From NCBI GenBank assembly GCA_016782425.1, contig JADHYN010000002.1, forward strand, positions 40,807 to 104,806: DNA of 64,000 nucleotides. Direction: 5' to 3'. The stretch comes from Candidatus Omnitrophota bacterium. GTDB lineage: Bacteria; Omnitrophota; Gorgyraeia; JABMRN01; RBG-13-46-9. The notes below the pieces were generated by a model. The model was not told the DNA's origin, did no database searches, and worked only from the letters and a program-made list of their open reading frames with translations. This document shows, piece by piece, positions 1,832 to 59,141 of this stretch (within the stretch, counting starts at the first letter, position 1; each line of letters begins with the position of its first letter). Position numbers and translations under genes: made by a program.

Positions 1832-1890
1832 GTTTACCCCCTTCAATGAGACTTGTACTTATGAAAATTTCTTTGAACTTCTTCTGTGAA

Positions 1891-1921
1891 CCCCGTTAGA
1901 AATATCTTATTTCTAACGGGG
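1891..1921. repeat. perfect 13-bp-stem hairpin CCCCGTTAGAAAT-atctt-ATTTCTAACGGGG (member of a repeat family)
   Basis: Read directly. The same arms recur at 19635-19646, 19738-19767 and 19789-19800, with a variant at 59061-59110. No T-run follows on either strand here. Confidence 0.8.
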
Positions 1922-1939
1922 TGAAGGAACGAATTGAAT

Positions 1940-19732: not shown

Positions 19733-19767
19733 AAAAAATTTCTAACGGGGTTCAGCCCGTTAGAAAT
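19733..19767 (-). terminator. intrinsic terminator after htrA, built from the CCCGTTAGAAAT repeat
   Basis: The minus strand reads ATTTCTAACGGG-ctgaac-CCCGTTAGAAAT followed by TTTTT(T): a 12-bp stem plus U-run, 25 nt after the htrA stop. Confidence 0.75.
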
Positions 19768-19792
19768 TTGTGTACAACAAATATTAAAATTT

Positions 19793-21322
19793 CTAACGGG
19801 CTTCATCTTCCCTAACGGTAAAATAGCCTCGATCGGTCCTCACGAGAGTAAGCCCTTCTGCCTCATTTGTAACGTCGATATAGCCCGAAAGATTTCTTAT
19901 CGTTGTCCTGTTTATCTCTCTTATCACATCGCCCTTTCTCAATCCCGCTTCGTAACCGGGGCTTGAAGGGTCGATATCGATAATAACCACCCCTTCTTTA
20001 TCTTTGAGATTCAATTCGCGGCTCATTTCATTGGTAATATCGGAAACCGTAAGTCCCCGCCATTTTTTAGATTCTTGCGGAGTCCTGGTTTCCCTCCTCT
20101 GTGCGAGTTCAACCCTTGATGGCCTTTTCCCGATCCTAACCGGTACTGTTTTTTTAACCCTGTCGCGTATGACTTCAACTTGGGCAATCTGGCCGATTTC
20201 TGCATTTGTCGCCTCTTTTAAAAGATCAGTAACCGCAGCTATTTTCTTGCCGTTAAATGCTATTACGATATCTCCTTCCTTCAAGCCGCCTTTTTCTGCG
20301 GGGCTATCCGGTGTTACCTGTGAAATCAACGCGCCTTTCCGATCCGGCAAATTGAAATATTCCGCCATCTCGGGCGTTATCTCCTGCACTGCAACCCCAA
20401 GCCAGCCATAGACGATCTCTTTTCCTTCTATTAAATCGTCCAAAATGCGCCTTGCTGCGTTTATCGGAATGGCAAATCCCACGCCTTGATAACCGCCGCT
20501 TGTAGAAAATATAGCGACGTTTATACCTATTACCTTCCCGCTCAAATCGCAAAGGGGCCCTCCGCTGTTACCCGGGTTTATGGCAGCATCCGTTTGTATC
20601 ATGTCAACATGTCCTATTTCTCCACCGGGAGCGGGTATCTGCCTGTGCAGGGCGCTGATAACACCAACCGTAACAGTGGGCTTCGGGCTTCTTATGATAT
20701 GGCCGAAGGGATTTCCAAGTGCCACAGCCCATTCGCCTATCTGAACAAGATCCGAATCTCCGAGCTCAACTGTTGGTAAATTTTTGGCCTTTATCTTAAC
20801 GATTGCCAGATCGCTTCTCGGGTCTTTACCCTTTACGGTACCGGCAAAGCTTCTTCCATCGGGAAGGGTTATGCTAATTTTTTCTGCCCCTTCTATCACG
20901 TGATTATTGGTCAGTATATAACCTTTTTTGTCGATGATAAAACCGCTACCTAATCCGCTTTGTTTGAATTCTCTCTCAGGGAATTGATTGAAGAAATCCT
21001 CGAAAAATTTCTCAAACGGATCTTCTCCGTTATCAAACGGGCTTTTAAAGCGCTTAAATCGGAAGCGCGAGCTCGGAATTCCCACTTTCTGAGTACGTTC
21101 TGTAGATACGGCGACAACGGCCTTTCCGACTTTGTCGGCTACGTTTATAAAGGCGTTTTGGATATCAACCTCGCCTCTTACGTCTTTCACCTTAGTGCTT
21201 GTAACGGCTGGCCTAGCGTTTTTACCCGTTTTTGTCCTTACGGGTCTGGGGCGCAATGATAAAATGAAAATCAAAGCAAGCGCGACCATCAGTATAACGA
21301 GATAAAAAACGGATCTTCTCAT
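19793..21322 (-). CDS. HtrA/DegP-family periplasmic serine protease with two PDZ domains
   Basis: N-terminal TM/signal segment, TNNHV (His), GNSGGPL (Ser), and two PDZ-like repeats. The start overlaps the recA stop (ATGA). Confidence 0.9.
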
Positions 21323-22353
21323 TTTGAGCTACCCCCTTTTCCGATCTCTGCCATTACTTCTTTCTCGATTTTGTTTAAAATACTCGAGTTCTCCTTCAGG
21401 AAAAGCCTTGCGTTTTCTTTGCCCTGGCCTAATTTCTCTTCGCCATAGGCGTACCATGTGCCGACTTTTTTTACGATGCTTTTTGATTCTGCGATATCCA
21501 ATACATTTGCAGATCTCGAAATTCCCTCGTCATACATTATGTCAAACTCGGCCTTCCGGAAAGGAGGGGCTACTTTATTTTTAACAATATTCGCGCGAAC
21601 CCTGTTTCCGACTACTTCATCACCTTTTTTAAGCGATGCGATTCTTCTTAGGTCTATTCTTACCGATGCGTAAAACTTAAGGGCCCGGCCGCCCGGTGTC
21701 GTCTCGGGATTTCCCCACACGATGCCGATTTTTTCCCGGATCTGGTTTATGAAAATAACGCATGTCTTCGACTTGCTTATGGCTCCTGATAATTTCCTGA
21801 GCGCCTGGCTCATGAGCCGCGCTTGCATGCCCATAAATGACTGCCCCATCTCGCCTTCGATTTCGGCTCTCGGTGTAAGCGCCGCAACAGAATCTATCGC
21901 GATTACGTCAATGGCGCTACTTCTCACCAGCGTTTCCGCTATCTCGAGTGCTTGCTCACCCGTGTCAGGCTGTGAGATCAAGAGGTTATCCAGGTTTACG
22001 CCTATTTTTTTGGCATACGTTGCGTCAAAAGCGTGTTCTGCATCGATAAATGCTGCCTGGCCGCCTCTTTTCTGAACATTTGTGATTATATTCAGCGTGA
22101 GGGTCGTCTTGCCACTGGCTTCGGGTCCGTATACTTCTATCACCCTGCCGCGCGGCACCCCACCGATACCCAATGCAATATCCAGCGCAATCGATCCTGT
22201 CGGAATAGCTGGTATATCCAGCTTAAAGTCCTGCCCAAGTTTCATAATCGAACCCTTCCCGAACTGTTTCTCGATTTGATTAAGGGCAAGCTCCAGCGCC
22301 TTTGCCTTTGTCATGTCGAGGTTCTCTTCCATTTTTTTCTTTGTTTTTGGCAT
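21319..22353 (-). CDS. recA: recombinase RecA
   Basis: [10 protein letters not shown] Walker [15 protein letters not shown]; 344 aa. Confidence 0.97.
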
Positions 22354-22438
22354 AAATTACCTCCTCTTAAATAGTGTTACTTATACCCTACACTATAACC
22401 CTTTATATTACCTTGAAATAGGTTATATATTATACATA

Positions 22439-22468
22439 GGCACCCCCCTCCTTGTAAAGCATTTTTCA
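22439..22468 (-). promoter_or_regulatory. candidate recA promoter TTTACA-N18-TATAAT
   Basis: Hexamers read on the minus strand about 85 nt upstream of the recA ATG. Confidence 0.35.
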
Positions 22469-22489: not shown

Positions 22490-22512
22490 TTGGCGACCGC
22501 GTCGGTCGCCAA
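22490..22512. repeat. REP palindrome copy A
   Basis: 9-bp GC-rich stem with a 5-nt loop; ends 4 nt before the RAYT stop codon. Confidence 0.9.
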
Positions 22513-22516
22513 GTGG

Positions 22517-23155
22517 TTAATCAAACAGCAAAGTCTTTATTTCCGCTAATTCCCGTTGATAAGAAATTCCATTTATAACAAATCCTTTGTACCAACCTGC
22601 TTCTATGTGTAAAAGACCTTCATATCTGCACAATTTTTCCTTGTCGTTGTTTTCCGGTATATACTCTCGATAGGAAGAATGCTTCCATTCTTCTGGTTTC
22701 TCAACAAGATACGCTGTAACTGGATTTAAATGTACATATCGTGTTAAATGGAGTAACTGTTCATCAGTCTCAACCAATACCTTCTTGGACCTACTTTCCC
22801 ATAACGGCCCTTTTCGTTTATGCTTAAGGTTAAAATAACGGGTATAACTGTTAAGAAGGTTATTTGTAAAAATTGATATTCCATATTCCCTTAACGGTTG
22901 TAATATAAAATGCAAATGGGTAGGCATAAGACAATATGCGATTATTTCTGCAAGCTTTTCTTTTCCAATTAAAAAACTAGCTTTATTACTAAGGTAATTT
23001 GTTTTAGTCGTATATGATCTTGCAAATTTCGAAAAATTAACTGCTGGATTTTCTACCTGATAATAGTAGACCGCGGCCATCATCCGTAAGTAATCATAGT
23101 TATTGTTAAAAATCTTAAATCCTGCTATGCTTTTATTAAAAACATGATAAACCAT
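22517..23155 (-). CDS. IS200/IS605-like Y1 transposase of the REP-associated (RAYT) type
   Basis: HUH motif MPTHLHFIL; catalytic Tyr context LTRYVHLNPV; 212 aa; AAGGAG SD 5 nt upstream; REP copies on both sides. Confidence 0.8.
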   Translation of the reverse strand: MVYHVFNKSIAGFKIFNNNYDYLRMMAAVYYYQVENPAVNFSKFARSYTTKTNYLSNKASFLIGKEKLAEIIAYCLMPTHLHFILQPLREYGISIFTNNLLNSYTRYFNLKHKRKGPLWESRSKKVLVETDEQLLHLTRYVHLNPVTAYLVEKPEEWKHSSYREYIPENNDKEKLCRYEGLLHIEAGWYKGFVINGISYQRELAEIKTLLFD

Positions 23156-23172
23156 CTCTACTCCTTAACCCC

Positions 23173-23194
23173 TTGGCGACCGCGTCGGTCGCCA
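23173..23194. repeat. REP palindrome copy B
   Basis: Same sequence as copy A with the last base changed; directly upstream of the RAYT SD. Confidence 0.9.
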
Positions 23195-23268
23195 CGAGGT
23201 CCCCTTCATATATAAGACAACTGAAATGTAATTTTGCTGCAAAATTTTTTAAAATATTTTCGAGCTGC

Positions 23269-23291
23269 TTGGCGACCGACGCGGTCGCCAA
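23269..23291. repeat. REP palindrome copy C (loop inverted)
   Basis: Identical over 26 nt (TTGGCGACCGACGCGGTCGCCAAATG) to the copy at 46402. Confidence 0.9.
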
Positions 23292-23304: not shown

Positions 23305-23332
23305 TTGAATTATTTCTACTGAGCGATATAAT
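23305..23332 (+). promoter_or_regulatory. candidate cinA promoter TTGAAT-N16-TATAAT
   Basis: The -10 hexamer ends 8 nt before the cinA ATG, and no SD lies in between. Confidence 0.45.
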
Positions 23333-23340
23333 AACTCTGT

Positions 23341-24585
23341 ATGCGTGCAGAAATTATTTCGATAGGAACGGAAATCCTTTTAGGCCATATCGTAAATACA
23401 AACACCGCTTATCTATCAAAAAAAATGGCTCTTTTAGGAATAGACGTGTATCGCCATACCACTGTAGGCGATAATCCGATGAGGATTGTTTCTTTATTGA
23501 AGGAGGCGCTTTCGCGATCTGATATCGTGTTTACGACTGGAGGGTTGGGCCCTACGGTCGATGATATCACGCTAAACGCCATAGGTAGTGCTCTTTCCCG
23601 GTCGTTGGTATTCAACAAGGGAATAGAAAAAAGTATTGCAAAACACTTCAGAAAAAGAGGACTTAAGAAGGCACCCAAAGACGCCGTAAAGCAGGCATAT
23701 ATCCCCCGGGGCGCGCGATGGTTCGAAAATAAGGTAGGTACTGCCCCTGCGGTTCTTGTTGAATACGGAAAAAAATTAATAGTCGCCCTTCCCGGCCCTC
23801 CCAGAGAACTAATCCCTTTATGTGAAAAGAATATTATACCTTATTTAAAGAGAAAAGGGCTTGCCGGAAACTGGACCATAAAGACAAAGGCGATAAAAAC
23901 CGTCGGGCTCGTCGAGGCAGAGGTAAACAGGGCTGTAAAGGATCTTCTCTCCATGGGTCCCGAAACGACGGTGGGAATCTACGCGCATCTTGGTGAAGTA
24001 GATCTTAAAATAACCTCAAAAGCAAAAAGTGAAAAAAGCGCTAACCGCGATATCAAAAAAGTCGAGAAAACGATAAGAAAAAGACTTGGCAAATATATAT
24101 ATGGCACGGATACGGAAACCCTGGAATATGCGCTGGGGACAATGCTTGAAAAAAAGAAAAAGACGCTCGCTATCGCCGAGTCCTGCACCGGGGGCCTCAT
24201 AGCTAACCGAATAACAAATATAAGCGGCAGCTCCAAGTACTTTAAAATGGGTGTGGTTGCCTATTCGAATAAATCAAAAATCAATTTACTCGGTGTTTCA
24301 GATGCTAAAATCAAAAAGTCCGGCGCGGTATCAGGAGGGGTTGCTCTCGATATGGCAAAGGGCATAAAAAATCTATCGAAATCGGATATTGCTATAGGCA
24401 TAACAGGTATTGCCGGTCCAAAAGGTAAAGCAAAGAAAAAACCCATCGGCCTGGTATATATTGCGCTGATAAGCGATAAGGTAAAAGTGGTAAAAGAATA
24501 TCGTTTTAAAGGAACTCGCGAAGAAATAAAACTCCAGTCTTCAATTGCGGCTCTTGATCTCGCAAGGCAACATGGCTCAAAATGA
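23341..24585 (+). CDS. cinA: competence/damage-inducible protein CinA (MoCF-like N domain plus PncC-type C domain)
   Basis: MRAEIISIGTEILLGHIVNTN N-terminus; C-terminal ESCTGGL motif; 414 aa. Confidence 0.9.
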   Translation: MRAEIISIGTEILLGHIVNTNTAYLSKKMALLGIDVYRHTTVGDNPMRIVSLLKEALSRSDIVFTTGGLGPTVDDITLNAIGSALSRSLVFNKGIEKSIAKHFRKRGLKKAPKDAVKQAYIPRGARWFENKVGTAPAVLVEYGKKLIVALPGPPRELIPLCEKNIIPYLKRKGLAGNWTIKTKAIKTVGLVEAEVNRAVKDLLSMGPETTVGIYAHLGEVDLKITSKAKSEKSANRDIKKVEKTIRKRLGKYIYGTDTETLEYALGTMLEKKKKTLAIAESCTGGLIANRITNISGSSKYFKMGVVAYSNKSKINLLGVSDAKIKKSGAVSGGVALDMAKGIKNLSKSDIAIGITGIAGPKGKAKKKPIGLVYIALISDKVKVVKEYRFKGTREEIKLQSSIAALDLARQHGSK

Positions 24586-25811: not shown

Positions 25812-25848
25812 ACTACTTGCGTAAACCCATTGGGTTTACGCAAGTAGT
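25812..25848. promoter_or_regulatory. 37-bp perfect palindrome ACTACTTGCGTAAACCCA-T-TGGGTTTACGCAAGTAGT (candidate operator or leader hairpin)
   Basis: Read directly; begins about 5 nt after the predicted transcription start. Confidence 0.6.
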
Positions 25849-45985: not shown

Positions 45986-48727
45986 ATGGACCGAAATCTA
46001 CCGGAAAAATTTAAAAAGATCTCATCCGAATATAGCAATCAAATTGCAATCAAGTATAAAAAGGATAATAAATGGGCTACTATTACCTACGGTGATTTTA
46101 ATAACACCCTTGAATCGCTATGCAACTTTTTATTAACAAAAAATATTAAAAAGGATGATAAGATCGCTATCCTCCTGAAAAACAGGCCTGAATGGCCGCT
46201 TGTATTTTTCGCATCGCTTTCCATAGGGGCTGCCTGTGTACCTATGAATCCCGAATTAACCCAGAAGGAAATCCAAAATATACTTAATAATTCTGAGTCA
46301 AAAATCGTCTTTACGGACGACGGGTTTTTACGTCTAAAAAAGGAAATCCTGCAAAACTGCCCTTCTGTAAAAGAAGTTATTTCCGTGGATTCAGAATCAG
46401 TTTGGCGACCGACGCGGTCGCCAAATGTTAGTAGCGACCGCCATGCCGATCCGGGTGATACAGCATGCATTCTATACACCTCGGGTACCACTGATGAGCC
46501 AAAAGGCGTTATGCTTTCGCACAAGAATTTGCTTTCGAACTGCGAATCGCTTTATAAATTAAACCTGATTACCCGGAAAGACAGCGTAGTTTCCATTCTT
46601 CCGCTCCACCATACCTATCCGCTAACCATAACGATGCTTCTCCCGCTTTTATACGGCGGCATGATAGTCTATCCCGGTACGCTGCGCGGAGAAGCCGTTT
46701 TACAAGCATTAAAAGAGACCAATCCTACTGTTTTTGTTGCCGTGCCGCAGATTTTTTATACGTTTCATCAAAAGATTGTGGATCTACTGAAGAATATCCC
46801 CTTTCCCCTAAAGCTCTTGCTTAATGCTACAACCAATCTTTTATATCGGATTCGGCGTAAAACACGCATCAATTTATCACGCTACCTATTTTTCAGTCTC
46901 CAAAAAAAATTCGGAAAATCGATGCGTTTATTTGTAAGCGGGGGCGCGAAGCTCGATGAAAACGTCGAACAGGACCTTTTCAAATTCGGATTTACGATAT
47001 TGGAAGGTTACGGCCTTACGGAAACCTCGCCTGTCTTAGCCTTGAATCCTTTAAAAAATCCAAAAATAGGTTCGGTAGGACTTGCGATACCAGAGGTGGA
47101 ATTAAGAATAATAAATAAGGATGAGAATGGCCTGGGTGAGGTCATAGCGCGCGGCCCGAATATTATGGAAGGATACTACAAAAGAAGTGATTTAACCGCC
47201 GATGTGATAAAAGACGGGTGGTTTTATACGGGTGATTTAGGATTTTTTGATAAAGACGGCTATTTGTTTTTGACCGGGAGGTCGAAGGATATAATTGTAT
47301 TGAGTTCGGGTAAGAATATATATCCGGAAGAAATAGAAGAGGCTTACTCTAAAGACGTGCCTGCAGAGGAAATATGCGTATTCGAAGTGCCGTCTAAAAA
47401 GGGAGCCAAAGAAACGGAAGTCCTATGGGCTGTTATTGTTCCCGATCTTAAATTCTTCAAAAAATACGGAGAGGTGAATTTAAAAAATGTTATAAAAGAA
47501 AGAATTGACAATGTATCGAGATCCTTACCTCCCCACAAAAGGCTTATGGGTTTTTCCATAACGCTTGATGAGCTTCCGCGTACGCTTTTGGGTAAAGTTA
47601 AAAGGTTTGCCGTTAAAGAAATTTACATACCAAAGATACTAGAGGAAGAAAAAACCATACCGGAAAAAGAGGACTTATCCCGGGAAGACCGTGAATTAGT
47701 AAATACCTATTTCGGTAAAAAGATAATAGATTATCTTAAAAAAACGGCCAAAGTTGACAAGGCGATTGTCCCGGCTAATTCGCTGGAACTCGACCTCGGG
47801 ATAGATTCATTAGGCAGAATTGACCTTGCCTTCGGCCTTGAAAAGCTGTTTGGAACGGAAATAGAAGATGAAATTATCGGCCGTTCGTTTACGGTAAAGG
47901 ACTTAATTCTGGGCTGCATGGAATCGCTTTTGCCGAAAGATACCAAAACCAAGCGGGAAGGCAAAAAAGGAATAGATTTTGGGCCTGATTACTGGGTAAA
48001 ACTTCTCCGGGTTCCCCCAAAAAAGGAAAGCCTGGATAAAATTGATTTAAACCCGGGTTTTGGCGCCTGGCTGGGTGGCTTTATTTTCACGTTATTGCAT
48101 TGGTTGGTCTATAAATTGTTTTATAGCCTAAAAGTAGAAGGAAAGGAAAATTTTCCCGAAAGCGGACCATATATATTATACGTGAATCATTCGAGTTACT
48201 TCGACGGGTTCCTTGTTGCGGTGTCTTTGCCTAAATTTCCGAGATTAGAGTTATTTTTTGTAGGCTTCAGGCCGTATTTTACCGTACCCATTATCAGGAA
48301 CCTCGTAAAAATAGGAAGAATCATACCGCTTGACTTCTCCTCGCACCTTTTAGAGGCCTTACGAAGCTCGTATTATGTCGTTAAAAAAGGTAAAAGCCTG
48401 TGTTTATTCCCCGAGGGCTTGCGTACGCTTGACGGAGAGATAAAAGAATTTAAGAAAGGGTTCGGTATACTGGTAAAAGAAACGCAGGCAAAGCTTGTGC
48501 CGGTTGTTCTAGAAGGCGCTTACGAAGCATGGCCGAGGACTTCCAAATTTCCCAGACGCCACCCTATAAAGGTAAAGTTCGGCAAGCCACGGGATCCCGG
48601 AGATATGGAAAGAGAAGGCTATAAAATGGGCGCTAAAGACAGCTATGAAGCTATATGCCTTGCAGCAAGGGATGTGCTGGTAACGCTAAAAGAAACCACA
48701 ACTTATGGAGGCCGAAGGCCAACTTAA
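45986..48727 (+). CDS. tridomain protein: AMP-dependent acyl ligase, carrier (PP-binding) domain, and 1-acylglycerol-3-phosphate-type acyltransferase
   Basis: LYTSGTTDEPKGV, GYGLTETS, and YTGDLG adenylation motifs; LGIDSLGRIDL carrier Ser; NHSSYFD (HX4D) and FPEGLRT acyltransferase motifs. Confidence 0.85.
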   Translation: MDRNLPEKFKKISSEYSNQIAIKYKKDNKWATITYGDFNNTLESLCNFLLTKNIKKDDKIAILLKNRPEWPLVFFASLSIGAACVPMNPELTQKEIQNILNNSESKIVFTDDGFLRLKKEILQNCPSVKEVISVDSESVWRPTRSPNVSSDRHADPGDTACILYTSGTTDEPKGVMLSHKNLLSNCESLYKLNLITRKDSVVSILPLHHTYPLTITMLLPLLYGGMIVYPGTLRGEAVLQALKETNPTVFVAVPQIFYTFHQKIVDLLKNIPFPLKLLLNATTNLLYRIRRKTRINLSRYLFFSLQKKFGKSMRLFVSGGAKLDENVEQDLFKFGFTILEGYGLTETSPVLALNPLKNPKIGSVGLAIPEVELRIINKDENGLGEVIARGPNIMEGYYKRSDLTADVIKDGWFYTGDLGFFDKDGYLFLTGRSKDIIVLSSGKNIYPEEIEEAYSKDVPAEEICVFEVPSKKGAKETEVLWAVIVPDLKFFKKYGEVNLKNVIKERIDNVSRSLPPHKRLMGFSITLDELPRTLLGKVKRFAVKEIYIPKILEEEKTIPEKEDLSREDRELVNTYFGKKIIDYLKKTAKVDKAIVPANSLELDLGIDSLGRIDLAFGLEKLFGTEIEDEIIGRSFTVKDLILGCMESLLPKDTKTKREGKKGIDFGPDYWVKLLRVPPKKESLDKIDLNPGFGAWLGGFIFTLLHWLVYKLFYSLKVEGKENFPESGPYILYVNHSSYFDGFLVAVSLPKFPRLELFFVGFRPYFTVPIIRNLVKIGRIIPLDFSSHLLEALRSSYYVVKKGKSLCLFPEGLRTLDGEIKEFKKGFGILVKETQAKLVPVVLEGAYEAWPRTSKFPRRHPIKVKFGKPRDPGDMEREGYKMGAKDSYEAICLAARDVLVTLKETTTYGGRRPT
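46402..46424. repeat. REP palindrome copy D, in-frame inside the ligase CDS
   Basis: TTGGCGACCGACGCGGTCGCCAA, translated as VWRPTRSPN just upstream of the LYTSGTT motif. Confidence 0.9.
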
Positions 48728-53982: not shown

Positions 53983-53985
53983 ATA

Positions 53986-54029
53986 TACTCTCTAAGTAGA
54001 GAGTAATGCTGTGCTCTCTACGTAGAGAG
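53986..54029. promoter_or_regulatory. two palindromic operator candidates of form CTCTCTA-N2-TAGAGAG
   Basis: TACTCTCTA-AG-TAGAGAGTA at 53986-54005 and CTCTCTA-CG-TAGAGAG at 54014-54029, with centres 26 bp apart. Confidence 0.6.
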
Positions 54030-54055
54030 TATACCATATCTTTTTGATTTGTCAA
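54028..54055 (-). promoter_or_regulatory. sigma70-type promoter TTGACA-N16-TATACT inside the secretion cluster
   Basis: Read on the minus strand. The -10 hexamer overlaps the distal palindrome. Confidence 0.6.
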
Positions 54056-58696: not shown

Positions 58697-59141
58697 CGTC
58701 TCCGCCCTCTACGCCGTTTCTGCCGTAGGAGTATAAATCGTAGTCCACATTACGGGTACCGGGATATTTATAGACATAGGGGTTTCCCCAGGGGTCTACG
58801 GGTCTTTTTTTCAAATAAGGCCCCCTCCAGTTCGGCGCGCTTGTCGGCTTTGTTAAAAGGGCGTTCAGGCCTTCTTCTGTCTTGGGATAAGCACCGTTAT
58901 CGAGTTCATAGAGATCAAGGGCTGAGCCGATATTCAACTCTATATCTGCCTTGGCGGCTGCTTCTCTTGCCTGTTCGGTTCTCCCGGCGAGTCTGGGCAT
59001 GACCATAGCCACCAGAATGCTTATTATGATGACTACAAGCATGAGTTCTACAAGCGTAAACCCCGTTAGAGATTTCTTAACTACAGGTCTTGTCCCGATC
59101 TCTAACCGGGTAAATCCTTTTTTGTTCCGATGTGATTTCAT
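58659..59141 (-). CDS. gspG: type II secretion major pseudopilin GspG
   Basis: TGFTLVELMLVVIIISILVAMVMP..., AKADIELNIGSALDLYELDNGAYP, and WGNPYVYKYPG. Start set at ATG 59141 (GGAGG 5 nt upstream) rather than 59171. Confidence 0.9.
   Translation of the reverse strand: MKSHRNKKGFTRLEIGTRPVVKKSLTGFTLVELMLVVIIISILVAMVMPRLAGRTEQAREAAAKADIELNIGSALDLYELDNGAYPKTEEGLNALLTKPTSAPNWRGPYLKKRPVDPWGNPYVYKYPGTRNVDYDLYSYGRNGVEGGDDDITNWDEEGTQ

What the first reader, a model, noticed from the sequence alone, without database searches (positions are those of the whole stretch)
22490..23291. RAYT transposase with its cognate REP palindromes inserted between the divergent recA and cinA promoters
A 212-aa HUH/Y1 protein (MPTHLHFIL; YVHLNPV) is bracketed by TTGGCGACC-GCGTC-GGTCGCCAA at 22490 and 23173. 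A loop-inverted copy lies 75 bp further on at 23269. The 9-bp GC stems stand out sharply from the AT-rich background. This is the REP/RAYT arrangement described in proteobacteria. Copy A ends about 22 bp upstream of the candidate recA -35 hexamer. Copy C ends 14 bp upstream of the candidate cinA -35 hexamer.
Basis: partly seen in the sequence, partly recalled or inferred. Interest (0 to 1): 0.6.

Follow-up and report, generated by a model that had tools for sequence, protein, structure and literature searches.

The report
RAYT-like gene with REP hairpins
A single-copy hairpin-cutting enzyme gene of the RAYT type sits between recA and cinA in an uncultured Omnitrophota bacterium, wrapped in copies of its own small DNA hairpin; this is a known kind of domesticated mobile-DNA system, here from a little-studied branch whose hairpin keeps the same loop across several phyla.

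Summary
A 23-nt palindrome, TTGGCGACCG-CGT-CGGTCGCCAA, lies at 22490, 23173 (22 of 23 bases) and, loop-inverted, at 23269. It brackets a 212-aa HUH/Y1 gene (22517-23155, minus strand).

The protein matches only Pfam Y1_Tnp, the NCBIfam REP-tyrosine-transposase model (58 bits, below the cutoff of 80) and E. coli TnpAREP (4ER8). It has no IS200 signature.

In eight other genomes (Omnitrophota, Scalindua, Tritonobacter), homologs about 60% identical are single-copy in the fetched DNA. Each is bracketed by its own hairpins within 65 nt or less of the start and 32 nt or less of the stop. Stems differ with compensatory changes. The core ACC-xCGTx-GGT is kept. Six of the nine genomes have dispersed copies, and one has many REPIN-like doublets.

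Two relatives carry the gene in the same recA-cinA slot, so it is an old resident, not a recent insertion.

Verdict: a REPtron-type system. It is a new member, possibly a variant, of a known kind. The genome-wide REP count for this organism could not be obtained.

The parts
22490..22512 (+). REP copy A (loop CGT on the + strand). It lies 4 nt past the stop codon of the RAYT-like gene and 31 bp from the recA -35 hexamer.
   Evidence: ssDNA fold -12.7 kcal/mol, z -4.9.
22517..23155 (-). RAYT-like HUH/Y1 gene, 212 aa. HUH motif at H80-L-H82, catalytic Y140 in YVHLNP, WE at 119-120.
23173..23195 (+). REP copy B (22 of 23 bases, same orientation as A). It lies 17 nt upstream of the RAYT start codon, next to the AAGGAG ribosome-binding site. 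Positionally matching REPs occur in relatives L049 and L051.
23269..23291 (-). REP copy C (exact, inverted relative to A and B). It ends 13 nt before the cinA -35 hexamer and is absent at this position in relatives L049, L050 and L051. With B it can form a 22-bp stem.
46402..46424 (-). REP copy D (exact, 11-bp stem with flanking T/A). It lies in frame inside the 913-aa AMP-ligase/acyltransferase gene 45986-48727 and encodes WRPTRSPN in the variable linker before the YTSGTT motif.
22429..22458 (-). recA promoter candidate TTTACA-18-TATAAT. It is conserved in four genomes, including one without the RAYT gene.
23305..23332 (+). cinA promoter candidate TTGAAT-16-TATAAT, conserved in relatives.
23201..23261 (.). 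Conserved intergenic block (CCCCTTCATATATA-AGACAA...TTTTGCTGC...TTTTTTAAAA) between REP B and REP C. It is also present in L050, which lacks the RAYT gene, so it belongs to the host locus and not to the element. It may hold the promoter of the minus-strand gene or a cinA regulatory site.

Best explanation
This is a REPtron-type unit. It consists of a chromosomally resident, single-copy class-2 TnpA-Y1 (RAYT-like) HUH endonuclease gene bracketed by its cognate REP hairpins.

Inferred mechanism, by analogy with E. coli TnpAREP and IS200/IS605 TnpA:
- The enzyme binds the REP as a single-stranded DNA hairpin, for example on the lagging-strand template.
- It recognises the conserved top of the stem plus the loop (ACC-GCGTC-GGT here; ACC-xCGTA-GGT in relatives).
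- It cuts and rejoins the strand through Tyr140, with His80 and His82 holding the metal.
- This occasionally copies the 23-nt hairpin to new sites. Copies C and D would be such products.

Shown: the motifs, the fold, the hairpin-gene-hairpin layout in nine genomes, the dispersed copies, the compensatory stem changes and the conserved locus.

Inferred: hairpin binding, cleavage, the cleavage position and mobilisation.

The flanking copies probably also act on expression of the gene. A sits just past the stop codon, ahead of the recA promoter. B sits in the 5' leader next to the ribosome-binding site.
For: 1. Protein family.
- Pfam Y1_Tnp scores 25.9 bits, above the cutoff of 23.
- The only NCBIfam hit is REP_Tyr_transpos, E 8e-16.
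- The only PDB sequence hit is 4ER8 TnpAREP.
- The AF2 model (pLDDT 73.5) matches 4ER8 best, then ISDra2, IS608 and IS200 TnpA.
- H80, H82, Y140 and N144 are invariant and P145 is nearly invariant among the 32 family members.

2. REP.
- Four copies occur in 64 kb against 0 expected by chance.
- The ssDNA hairpins are stable, z -4.5 to -6.7.
- One copy lies 23 kb from the gene.

3. Family-wide association.
- In all 9 genomes examined, the gene has a core-bearing hairpin 65 nt or less upstream and 32 nt or less from the stop.
- L044 carries 6 inverted doublets in 20 kb. Four of them fill short intergenic spacers.

4. Stem covariation. Nine of 13 stem pairs change on both sides across 7 genomes. 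89% of cells are paired, against 70% in shuffles and 33-47% when the partner is slid.

5. Not IS-like.
- There is one gene copy per locus in 215 kb of loci.
- The same recA-RAYT-cinA slot is used in L049 (CinA 76% identical) and L051 (68%), with diverged REPs.
- No full-length family member was found on PLSDB plasmids.

6. Recent DNA events at REPs.
- Copy C is absent in relatives.
- Two strains 99.6% identical differ by a 20-nt hairpin inserted exactly after GCGTA in a REP loop.
Against: - Only one dispersed copy was found in about 70 kb of the source genome. Classical REPs number tens to hundreds. The two public collections scanned did not contain this genome.
- The protein is below the NCBIfam equivalog cutoff (58 vs 80 bits).
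- There is no unpaired 5' GT[AG]G foot as in canonical REPs (PMC6006769, PMC3733652).
- Copies A and B are in direct orientation around the gene, as are IS200 ends.
- The hairpin units used for covariation were pre-selected for stems of 7 bp or more, and the core pattern was defined after seeing the data.
- Compensatory changes in a palindrome would also be expected for a site bound by a protein dimer on double-stranded DNA.
- No biochemical evidence exists for this family.
Confidence: 0.8

Rival explanations
1. It is an autonomous IS200/IS605-type insertion sequence of about 706 bp (22490-23195). Copies A and B are its left- and right-end hairpins. Copies C and D are miniature derivatives (PATE/MITE-like).
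For: - A and B are in direct orientation and hug the gene, 4 nt and 17 nt away.
- The unit length resembles IS200.
- The fold is shared with IS200/IS608/ISDra2 TnpA.
Against: - The Y motif is Y---NP, not Y---Q (PMC6006769 Table 1).
- No NCBIfam IS200 model hit was found.
- Each locus holds a single copy.
- The same chromosomal slot is used in relatives whose proteins are only 60-62% identical.
- Hairpin orientation relative to the gene varies between genomes.
- Solo hairpins and doublets greatly outnumber genes in L044.
Confidence: 0.07
2. The palindromes are cis-regulatory or RNA elements (terminator, insulator, mRNA-stability or leader hairpins) for the gene and its neighbours. They are not substrates of the protein, and the dispersed copies are coincidental or spread by recombination.
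For: - A lies between the RAYT stop codon and the recA promoter.
- B lies in the 5' leader.
- C is scored terminator-like just upstream of the cinA -35 hexamer.
- REPs are known to affect mRNA stability and termination (PMC3733652).
Against: - A and B have no T-run after the stem on the transcribed strand.
- Copy D is an exact 23-mer inside a coding region, where a terminator would be harmful.
- The hairpin co-occurs with this one protein family in nine genomes and three phyla while its stem sequence changes.
- This rival is not exclusive of the main explanation.
Confidence: 0.08
3. The palindromes are double-stranded operator sites bound by a dimeric regulator, possibly the protein's own C-terminal region. 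This would give autoregulation and co-regulation with recA and cinA.
For: - The arms are perfect 10-bp inverted repeats placed next to three promoters.
- Concerted change of both arms is also what a dimer-binding site would show.
Against: - The conserved part is the asymmetric loop (xCGTA/GCGTC), and its orientation is flipped between copies. A symmetric dimer would not read this.
- Pfam detects no DNA-binding HTH domain.
- Copies occur inside genes and between operon genes far from promoters.
Confidence: 0.05

Closest known systems
E. coli REPtron: TnpAREP/RayT (YafM, PDB 4ER8) with REP/BIME sequences (subclass 2.2 of PMC6006769; Bertels group 2)
   Same: - HUH plus single-Tyr core.
- WE and Y---NP motifs.
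- Best sequence and fold match in the PDB.
- Single-copy gene flanked by its own hairpins, with copies elsewhere in the chromosome.
   Different: - Only 14% identity in the structural alignment.
- 212-240 aa against 165 aa, with conserved N-terminal (YHVFNKSIA...RYYQ) and C-terminal (SYQRELAKIK) regions.
- T-HLH instead of D-HLH.
- The REP is a short perfect hairpin without bulge and without an unpaired 5' GTAG foot. The conserved bases are in the loop.
Subclass 2.1 TnpA-Y1 / TIRYT (Bertels group 1; PMC6006769, PMC3733652)
   Same: - Length class (median 238 aa).
- Y[IV]HLNP form of the Y motif.
- Wide distribution outside gammaproteobacteria.
   Different: - Subclass 2.1 is reported with NHVH or NH[YF]H, a C-terminal HTH-like domain, no REPs, and (as TIRYT) long terminal inverted repeats sharing GGGGWSAS.
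- Here the motif is THLH, Pfam finds no HTH, and the flanks are short hairpins that are also dispersed.
- Membership was not tested by phylogeny.
Subclass 2.4 TnpAREP (Bertels group 4; Cyanobacteria/Bacteroidetes)
   Same: - REP copies are found in frame inside the tnpAREP gene itself and inside unrelated genes.
- Seen here in L038 (copy inside the RAYT gene) and in the window (copy D).
- Also non-proteobacterial.
   Different: - Subclass 2.4 has NH[IFV]H/WQ/YIxNNP and long or 'double-foot' REPs with GT[AG]G.
[quoted passage not shown] In L038 the insertion lies before HuH.
IS200/IS605 TnpA with subterminal hairpins (IS608, ISDra2)
   Same: - Fold and catalytic motifs.
- Hairpin-gene-hairpin layout.
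- Expected action on single-stranded DNA, with insertion 3' of a short specific sequence.
   Different: - Y---Q signature.
- Multi-copy with near-identical copies.
- No tnpB here.
- Not syntenic between species.

Membership tests
TnpA-Y1 / HUH single-tyrosine superfamily (Pfam PF01797) | HUH motif and one catalytic Tyr on the C-terminal helix; Pfam score above the gathering cutoff | tested here: met
   HLH at residues 80-82 and Y140. Pfam 25.9 bits against a cutoff of 23. H80, H82 and Y140 are invariant in 32 homologs.
TnpA-Y1 / HUH single-tyrosine superfamily (Pfam PF01797) | Fold of IS200/IS608/TnpAREP | tested here: met
   AF2 model, pLDDT 73.5. The Foldseek PDB top hits are 4ER8, then ISDra2, IS200 and IS608 TnpA, probability about 1.0, TM (target-normalised) 0.5-0.58. 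The C-terminal 60 residues are low-confidence.
Class 2 TnpA-Y1 = RAYT/TnpAREP sensu lato (PMC6006769) | Y---NP signature (not Y---Q) | tested here: met
   YVHLNP in the window. The family consensus is RYIHLNPV.
Class 2 TnpA-Y1 = RAYT/TnpAREP sensu lato (PMC6006769) | Low copy number per genome, no near-identical duplicates | tested here: inconclusive
   tblastn finds one copy per locus in nine loci of 8-64 kb. No complete genome was available.
NCBIfam NF047646 REP-associated tyrosine transposase (equivalog) | Score at or above the curated cutoff (80 bits) | tested here: not met
   58.2 bits, E 8e-16, matching only the core, residues 64-160. The protein is related to this equivalog group but is not a member of it.
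REPtron (RAYT gene plus cognate REPs) | Gene flanked on both sides by copies of one hairpin family | tested here: met
   Window copies A, B and C. The same layout occurs in 8 other genomes.
REPtron (RAYT gene plus cognate REPs) | The same hairpin dispersed in many, mostly extragenic, copies in the genome, often as inverted doublets | tested here: inconclusive
   - Source genome: 1 dispersed copy (D, intragenic) in about 70 kb. The genome is absent from the scanned collections.
- Relatives: L044 has 4 dispersed intergenic doublets in 20 kb. L036, L040, L042 and L052 have 1-3 dispersed sites each.
Canonical REP (PMC6006769; GTAG super-family of PMC3733652) | Unpaired 5' GT[AG]G tetranucleotide at the foot of the hairpin | tested here: not met
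   The flanks of the four copies share no such motif. In relatives GTAG lies at the loop / 3'-stem junction (GCGTA|GG). In the window it reads GTCG.
CGTC-tagged REPs (PMC3733652) | Unpaired terminal CGTC tag, 8-9 bp stem starting with A-T pairs, CCA tail, no associated transposase | tested here: not met
   CGTC occurs here only inside the loop. The stem starts TTGG, there is no CCA tail, and a Y1 gene is adjacent.
IS200/IS605 insertion sequence | Y---Q motif, multiple near-identical copies, variable location between strains and species | tested here: not met
   - The motif is Y---NP.
- There is no NCBIfam IS200 hit.
- The gene is single-copy in the fetched loci.
- The locus is conserved in L049 and L051.
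- The locus is identical in five assemblies of the species.

The most novel reading that the evidence does not exclude
This gene represents a distinct, cross-phylum clade of class-2 Y1 enzymes. Its marks are the T-HLH motif, a length of about 220 aa, and its own N- and C-terminal regions. There are 142 clusters at 50% identity with E<=1e-30. The clade is not captured by the published subclass signatures.

Its cognate hairpin carries the recognition and cleavage motif in the loop (xCGTA|GG) rather than as a 5' GTAG foot. This loop is conserved from Omnitrophota to Planctomycetota while the stems co-vary.

The strain polymorphism in L040/L041 would then mark the enzyme's cutting and joining position. 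There, a 20-nt hairpin is inserted exactly after GCGTA.
Probability: 0.3. Interest if true: 0.55.

Novelty: new member of a known kind. Interest (0 to 1): 0.4.

Why it matters
RAYT/REP systems have been characterised almost entirely in Proteobacteria, with surveys reaching Cyanobacteria, Bacteroidetes and a few other phyla.

This locus has several useful properties:
- The same arrangement exists in uncultured Omnitrophota and in relatives in Planctomycetota and Tritonobacter.
- The protein is unusually conserved, about 60% identity across phyla.
- The hairpin's loop is conserved while its stem co-varies.

Together these give a clean natural data set for asking which hairpin features a Y1 enzyme reads. 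The position next to recA and cinA, conserved in several lineages, and the in-frame REP copies inside genes are further points of interest.

For annotation, the gene should not be called an active IS200 transposase.

Tried and rejected
- **Genome-wide count.** Exact-pattern scans of genome contigs and metagenome contigs with TTGGCGACCGNNNCGGTCGCCAA gave 14 and 16 single hits. None was the source organism: nearly all lie in G+C-rich contigs (one is 44% G+C), and all but one carry a different loop.
- **Extending the window.** Look-ups of terminal proteins added only about 6 kb on the right, with no new copy.
- **Rfam.** No family reached threshold anywhere in the window.
- **CGTC-tagged REPs.** A link to the transposase-less CGTC REPs of Di Nocera et al. 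was considered because the loop reads GCGTC. It was rejected because the tag position and stem features differ.
- **TIRYT motif.** A link to the GGGGWSAS terminal repeats was considered. GGTGGGACA matches only 6 of 8 positions by eye. The REP core strings are absent from the text-held supplements of both surveys and from the paper library. This remains unresolved.
- **Copy D as a net insertion.** Alignment with 39 homologs shows no net length gain. It replaces the conserved D-x-F-K-x-A-L-K stretch in a length-variable linker. An insertion with compensating loss, or a conversion, cannot be told apart.
- **B plus C as a mobile REPIN.** Rejected, because the 73-bp spacer is a host block conserved in relatives that lack C, and in one relative that lacks the gene.
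- **Plasmid search.** It found only core-domain matches at 27-43% identity.
- **Promoter of the RAYT gene.** No convincing sigma-70 promoter was found.

Full report
**1. What is in the sequence**

The window is 40% G+C. Three G+C-rich copies of a 23-nt palindrome stand out between recA (21319-22353, minus) and cinA (23341-24585, plus).
- Copy A lies at 22490-22512.
- Copy B lies at 23173-23195. It matches 22 of 23 bases; the last base is C.
- Copy C lies at 23269-23291, with its loop inverted.

A search allowing three mismatches found one more exact copy. This is D at 46402-46424, in the orientation of C. None was found in 100 shuffles. Only the 23-mer is shared; the flanks are unrelated.

As single-stranded DNA each copy folds into a 10-11 bp stem with a 3-nt loop, at -12 to -13.5 kcal/mol and z -4.5 to -6.7. 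B and C together can pair over 22 bp.

The ORF between A and B (22517-23155, minus) encodes 212 aa with MPTHLHFIL and YVHLNPV.
- A starts 4 nt after its stop codon.
- B ends 17 nt before its ATG, next to an AAGGAG site.
- The best promoter matches are TTTACA-18-TATAAT for recA (22458-22429) and TTGAAT-16-TATAAT for cinA (23305-23332).

**2. The protein**

Family and structure searches gave these results:
- Pfam gives only Y1_Tnp, at 25.9 bits.
- NCBIfam gives only REP_Tyr_transpos, at 58 bits. This is below its cutoff of 80, and no IS200 model is hit.
- The only PDB sequence match is 4ER8, E. coli TnpAREP bound to a REP hairpin.
- An AlphaFold model built on 32 homologs has mean pLDDT 73.5, with the C-terminal third poorly defined.
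- That model matches 4ER8 best, followed by ISDra2, IS200 and IS608 transposases.

The source is a Candidatus Omnitrophota MAG, where the identical protein is annotated 'transposase'. More than 3000 homologs were found. The best 120 are all full-length and 56-64% identical, and those that carry a source name come from Omnitrophota, Ca. Scalindua rubra and Ca. Tritonobacter.

The family consensus is very tight: YHVFNKSIA, RYYQ, AYCxMPTHLHLIL, LNSYTRYFN, RKGPLWEGRFK, TDEQLLHLTRYIHLNPV, SYQRELAKIK. An exhaustive search of 50%-identity representatives found 142 clusters at E<=1e-30 and 4847 at E<=1e-10.

I compared the motifs with Table 1 of PMC6006769.
- The Y---NP motif places the protein in class 2 (TnpAREP-like), not in IS200 (Y---Q).
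- YVHLNP is the form listed for subclass 2.1.
- HLH and WE are the forms listed for 2.2.
- The T before HuH is listed for none.

I therefore could not assign a subclass by signature, and I had no reference sequences for a tree.

**3. The hairpin goes with the gene in other genomes**

I fetched the DNA around homologs from eight other organisms. In every one the gene is bracketed by a hairpin family of its own (table).

| Locus | Homolog | Hairpins seen |
|---|---|---|
| L036 | P0002 | 17-18 bp palindromes ATTCTGACCGCGTAGGTC-TGA-... on both sides |
| L038 | P0029 | ATTTCCCACC-GCGTA-GGTGGGAAAT upstream, downstream (inverted) and once inside the gene itself |
| L040/L041 | P0036 | Core at the start and the stop, plus two or three dispersed sites |
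| L042 | P0035, Tritonobacter | TTGTCCCACC-CCGGA-GGTGGGACAA |
| L044 | P0110 | Inverted doublets AACCTTGTCCCACC-TACGC-GGTGGGAC..GTCCCACC-GCGTA-GGTGGGACAAGGTT on both sides, plus four more that fill short spacers between co-directional genes within 20 kb |
| L049, L051 | P0004, P0093 | See section 4 |
| L052 | P0020, Scalindua | CCCACC-TCGTA-GGTGGGA upstream, at the stop, and 3.4 kb away |

In all nine genomes:
- The loop centre of the nearest copy is 65 nt or less from the start.
- It is 32 nt or less from the stop, or overlaps it.
- The orientation relative to the gene varies.

The shared core is ACC(or ACT)-xCG(T/G)x-GGT(or AGT). The window has the GCGTC form, which it shares with L051.

Taking one or two units per genome, 9 of 13 stem pairs show changes on both sides. 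89% of cells pair, against 70% in shuffles and 33-47% when the partner is slid.

Two caveats apply. The units were chosen for stems of 7 bp or more, and the core pattern was written after seeing the data. However, the hairpins in each new locus were first picked up by a blind perfect-stem scan.

tblastn finds one gene copy per locus across 215 kb. PLSDB plasmids hold only core-domain relatives at 27-43% identity.

**4. The locus is old, not a fresh insertion**

Relatives were found through CinA.
- L049 (CinA 76% identical) has a 62%-identical homolog divergent from cinA in the same slot; the contig ends before recA could be confirmed.
- L051 (CinA 68%) has recA, a 60%-identical homolog, then cinA.
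- L050 (CinA 73%) has an unrelated ORF6N gene in the slot.

The recA and cinA promoters are conserved in all four genomes. So is a block of about 60 bp upstream of cinA (window 23201-23261), and it is present in L050 too.

The hairpin next to the start codon aligns positionally in the window, L049 and L051, although its stem sequence differs. L051 even repeats the layout 'single REP on the recA side, inverted pair on the cinA side'.

Copy C has no counterpart in the relatives. It sits between the conserved block and the cinA -35 hexamer, so it is a later addition in this lineage.

Five assemblies of the same species carry identical REPs. They differ in this region only by one C in the poly-C tract of the recA promoter spacer.

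The most economical reading is long residence at this site with one replacement. Repeated site-specific insertion cannot be formally excluded, because the syntenic homologs are no closer in sequence than non-syntenic ones. All sit on a plateau of about 60% identity.

**5. Copy D**

D lies inside a 913-aa AMP-ligase/acyltransferase gene and is read in frame as WRPTRSPN. In 39 homologs this stretch is a length-variable linker just before the YTSGTT adenylation motif.
- The window protein has no net extra length.
- It has lost the D-x-F-K-x-A-L-K motif present in most homologs.

In-frame REPs inside genes, including inside tnpAREP genes, are on record (PMC3733652 abstract; PMC6006769). L038 gives a second example in this family.

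**6. A hint at where DNA is cut**

L040 and L041 are 99.6% identical over 20.7 kb. The largest difference is a 20-nt hairpin, CCTGCCTGCCGACAGGCAGG. It is present in L041 exactly between GCGTA and GGTG of a REP that is intact in L040.

This shows breakage and joining at the 3' edge of the conserved loop in nature. That position is where an IS200/IS605-type enzyme would be expected to act, 3' of a short specific sequence. It is a single event in a relative, and other agents that target REP loops are known (my own knowledge: IS1397, ISKpn1). I treat it as a lead only.

**7. Interpretation**

The alternatives fare less well.
- An autonomous IS200-type element is disfavoured by the Y motif, the single copy number and the conserved locus.
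- Purely regulatory hairpins, or operators bound as duplex DNA, do not explain the intragenic and inter-operon copies. They also do not explain the conserved asymmetric loop.
- The flanking copies may well have been co-opted for expression control.

What departs from the textbook case:
- The phylum.
- The protein's own N- and C-terminal regions and its T-HLH motif.
- The sub-threshold NCBIfam score.
- The absence of a GT[AG]G foot.
- The conservation of the loop across phyla.

The papers I read describe atypical REPs for some subclasses (2.6 and 3), so these differences are of degree. No paper in the library contains the core strings.

**8. What remains open**

- The genome-wide REP count and gene copy number in this organism.
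- The subclass placement.
- All biochemistry.

Noticed in passing
window 46402-46424 (within ORF 45986-48727): An exact REP copy lies in frame inside an AMP-ligase/acyltransferase gene. It encodes WRPTRSPN in a variable linker before the YTSGTT motif. There is no net length gain compared with 39 homologs.
   Followed up: yes
window 1890-1922, 19736-19802, 59060-59111: A second, unrelated family of AT-richer palindromes is built on CCCGTTAGAAAT (for example ACCCCGTTAGAAATA-TCT-TATTTCTAACGGGGT). There are five exact 12-mers at two sites and a variant pair at a third, all at gene ends. They could be terminators or another REP-like family.
   Followed up: partly
window 22443: The poly-C tract in the recA promoter spacer varies by one C between assemblies of the same species, giving a spacer of 18 or 17 nt. 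It is the only difference in the whole recA-cinA intergenic region.
   Followed up: partly
window 23201-23261: An intergenic block of about 60 bp upstream of cinA (CCCCTTCATATATA-AGACAA...TTTTGCTGC...TTTTTTAAAA) is conserved in four genomes, including L050, which lacks the RAYT gene. It may be a regulatory site or the promoter of the divergent gene.
   Followed up: partly
L050 5346-5909: In one relative (CinA 73% identical) an ORF6N-domain gene occupies the recA-cinA slot instead of the RAYT gene, between the same conserved promoters. It contains a 14-bp-stem palindrome, TTTTTGAGGTCGCAA-T-TTGCGACCTCAAAAA. Similar GAGGTCACAA palindromes lie just upstream of the RAYT doublet in L044 (9860-9916).
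   Followed up: no
L041 16965-16984 versus L040 16947-16977: Two strains 99.6% identical differ by a 20-nt hairpin (CCTGCCTGCCGACAGGCAGG). It is inserted exactly between GCGTA and GGTG in the loop of a REP at the 3' end of a radical-SAM gene.
   Followed up: partly
L038 5384-5414: A REP copy lies in frame inside the RAYT homolog itself, in the poorly conserved stretch before the HUH motif.
   Followed up: partly
protein P0133 (homolog of the 913-aa ligase): This homolog has a 20-residue insertion (GSPTLHSGLSNGVKSHRPL...) at the same linker where the window gene carries REP copy D. It may be an analogous in-frame repeat insertion in another organism.
   Followed up: no
window 25812-25848 and 53984-54033: Two long perfect or near-perfect palindromes were seen. 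One is ACTACTTGCGTAAACCCA-T-TGGGTTTACGCAAGTAGT, upstream of an HTH/cupin regulator gene. The other is TATACTCTCTAAGTAGAGAG...CTCTCTACGTAGAGAGTATA. Both are single-copy and possibly operators.
   Followed up: no
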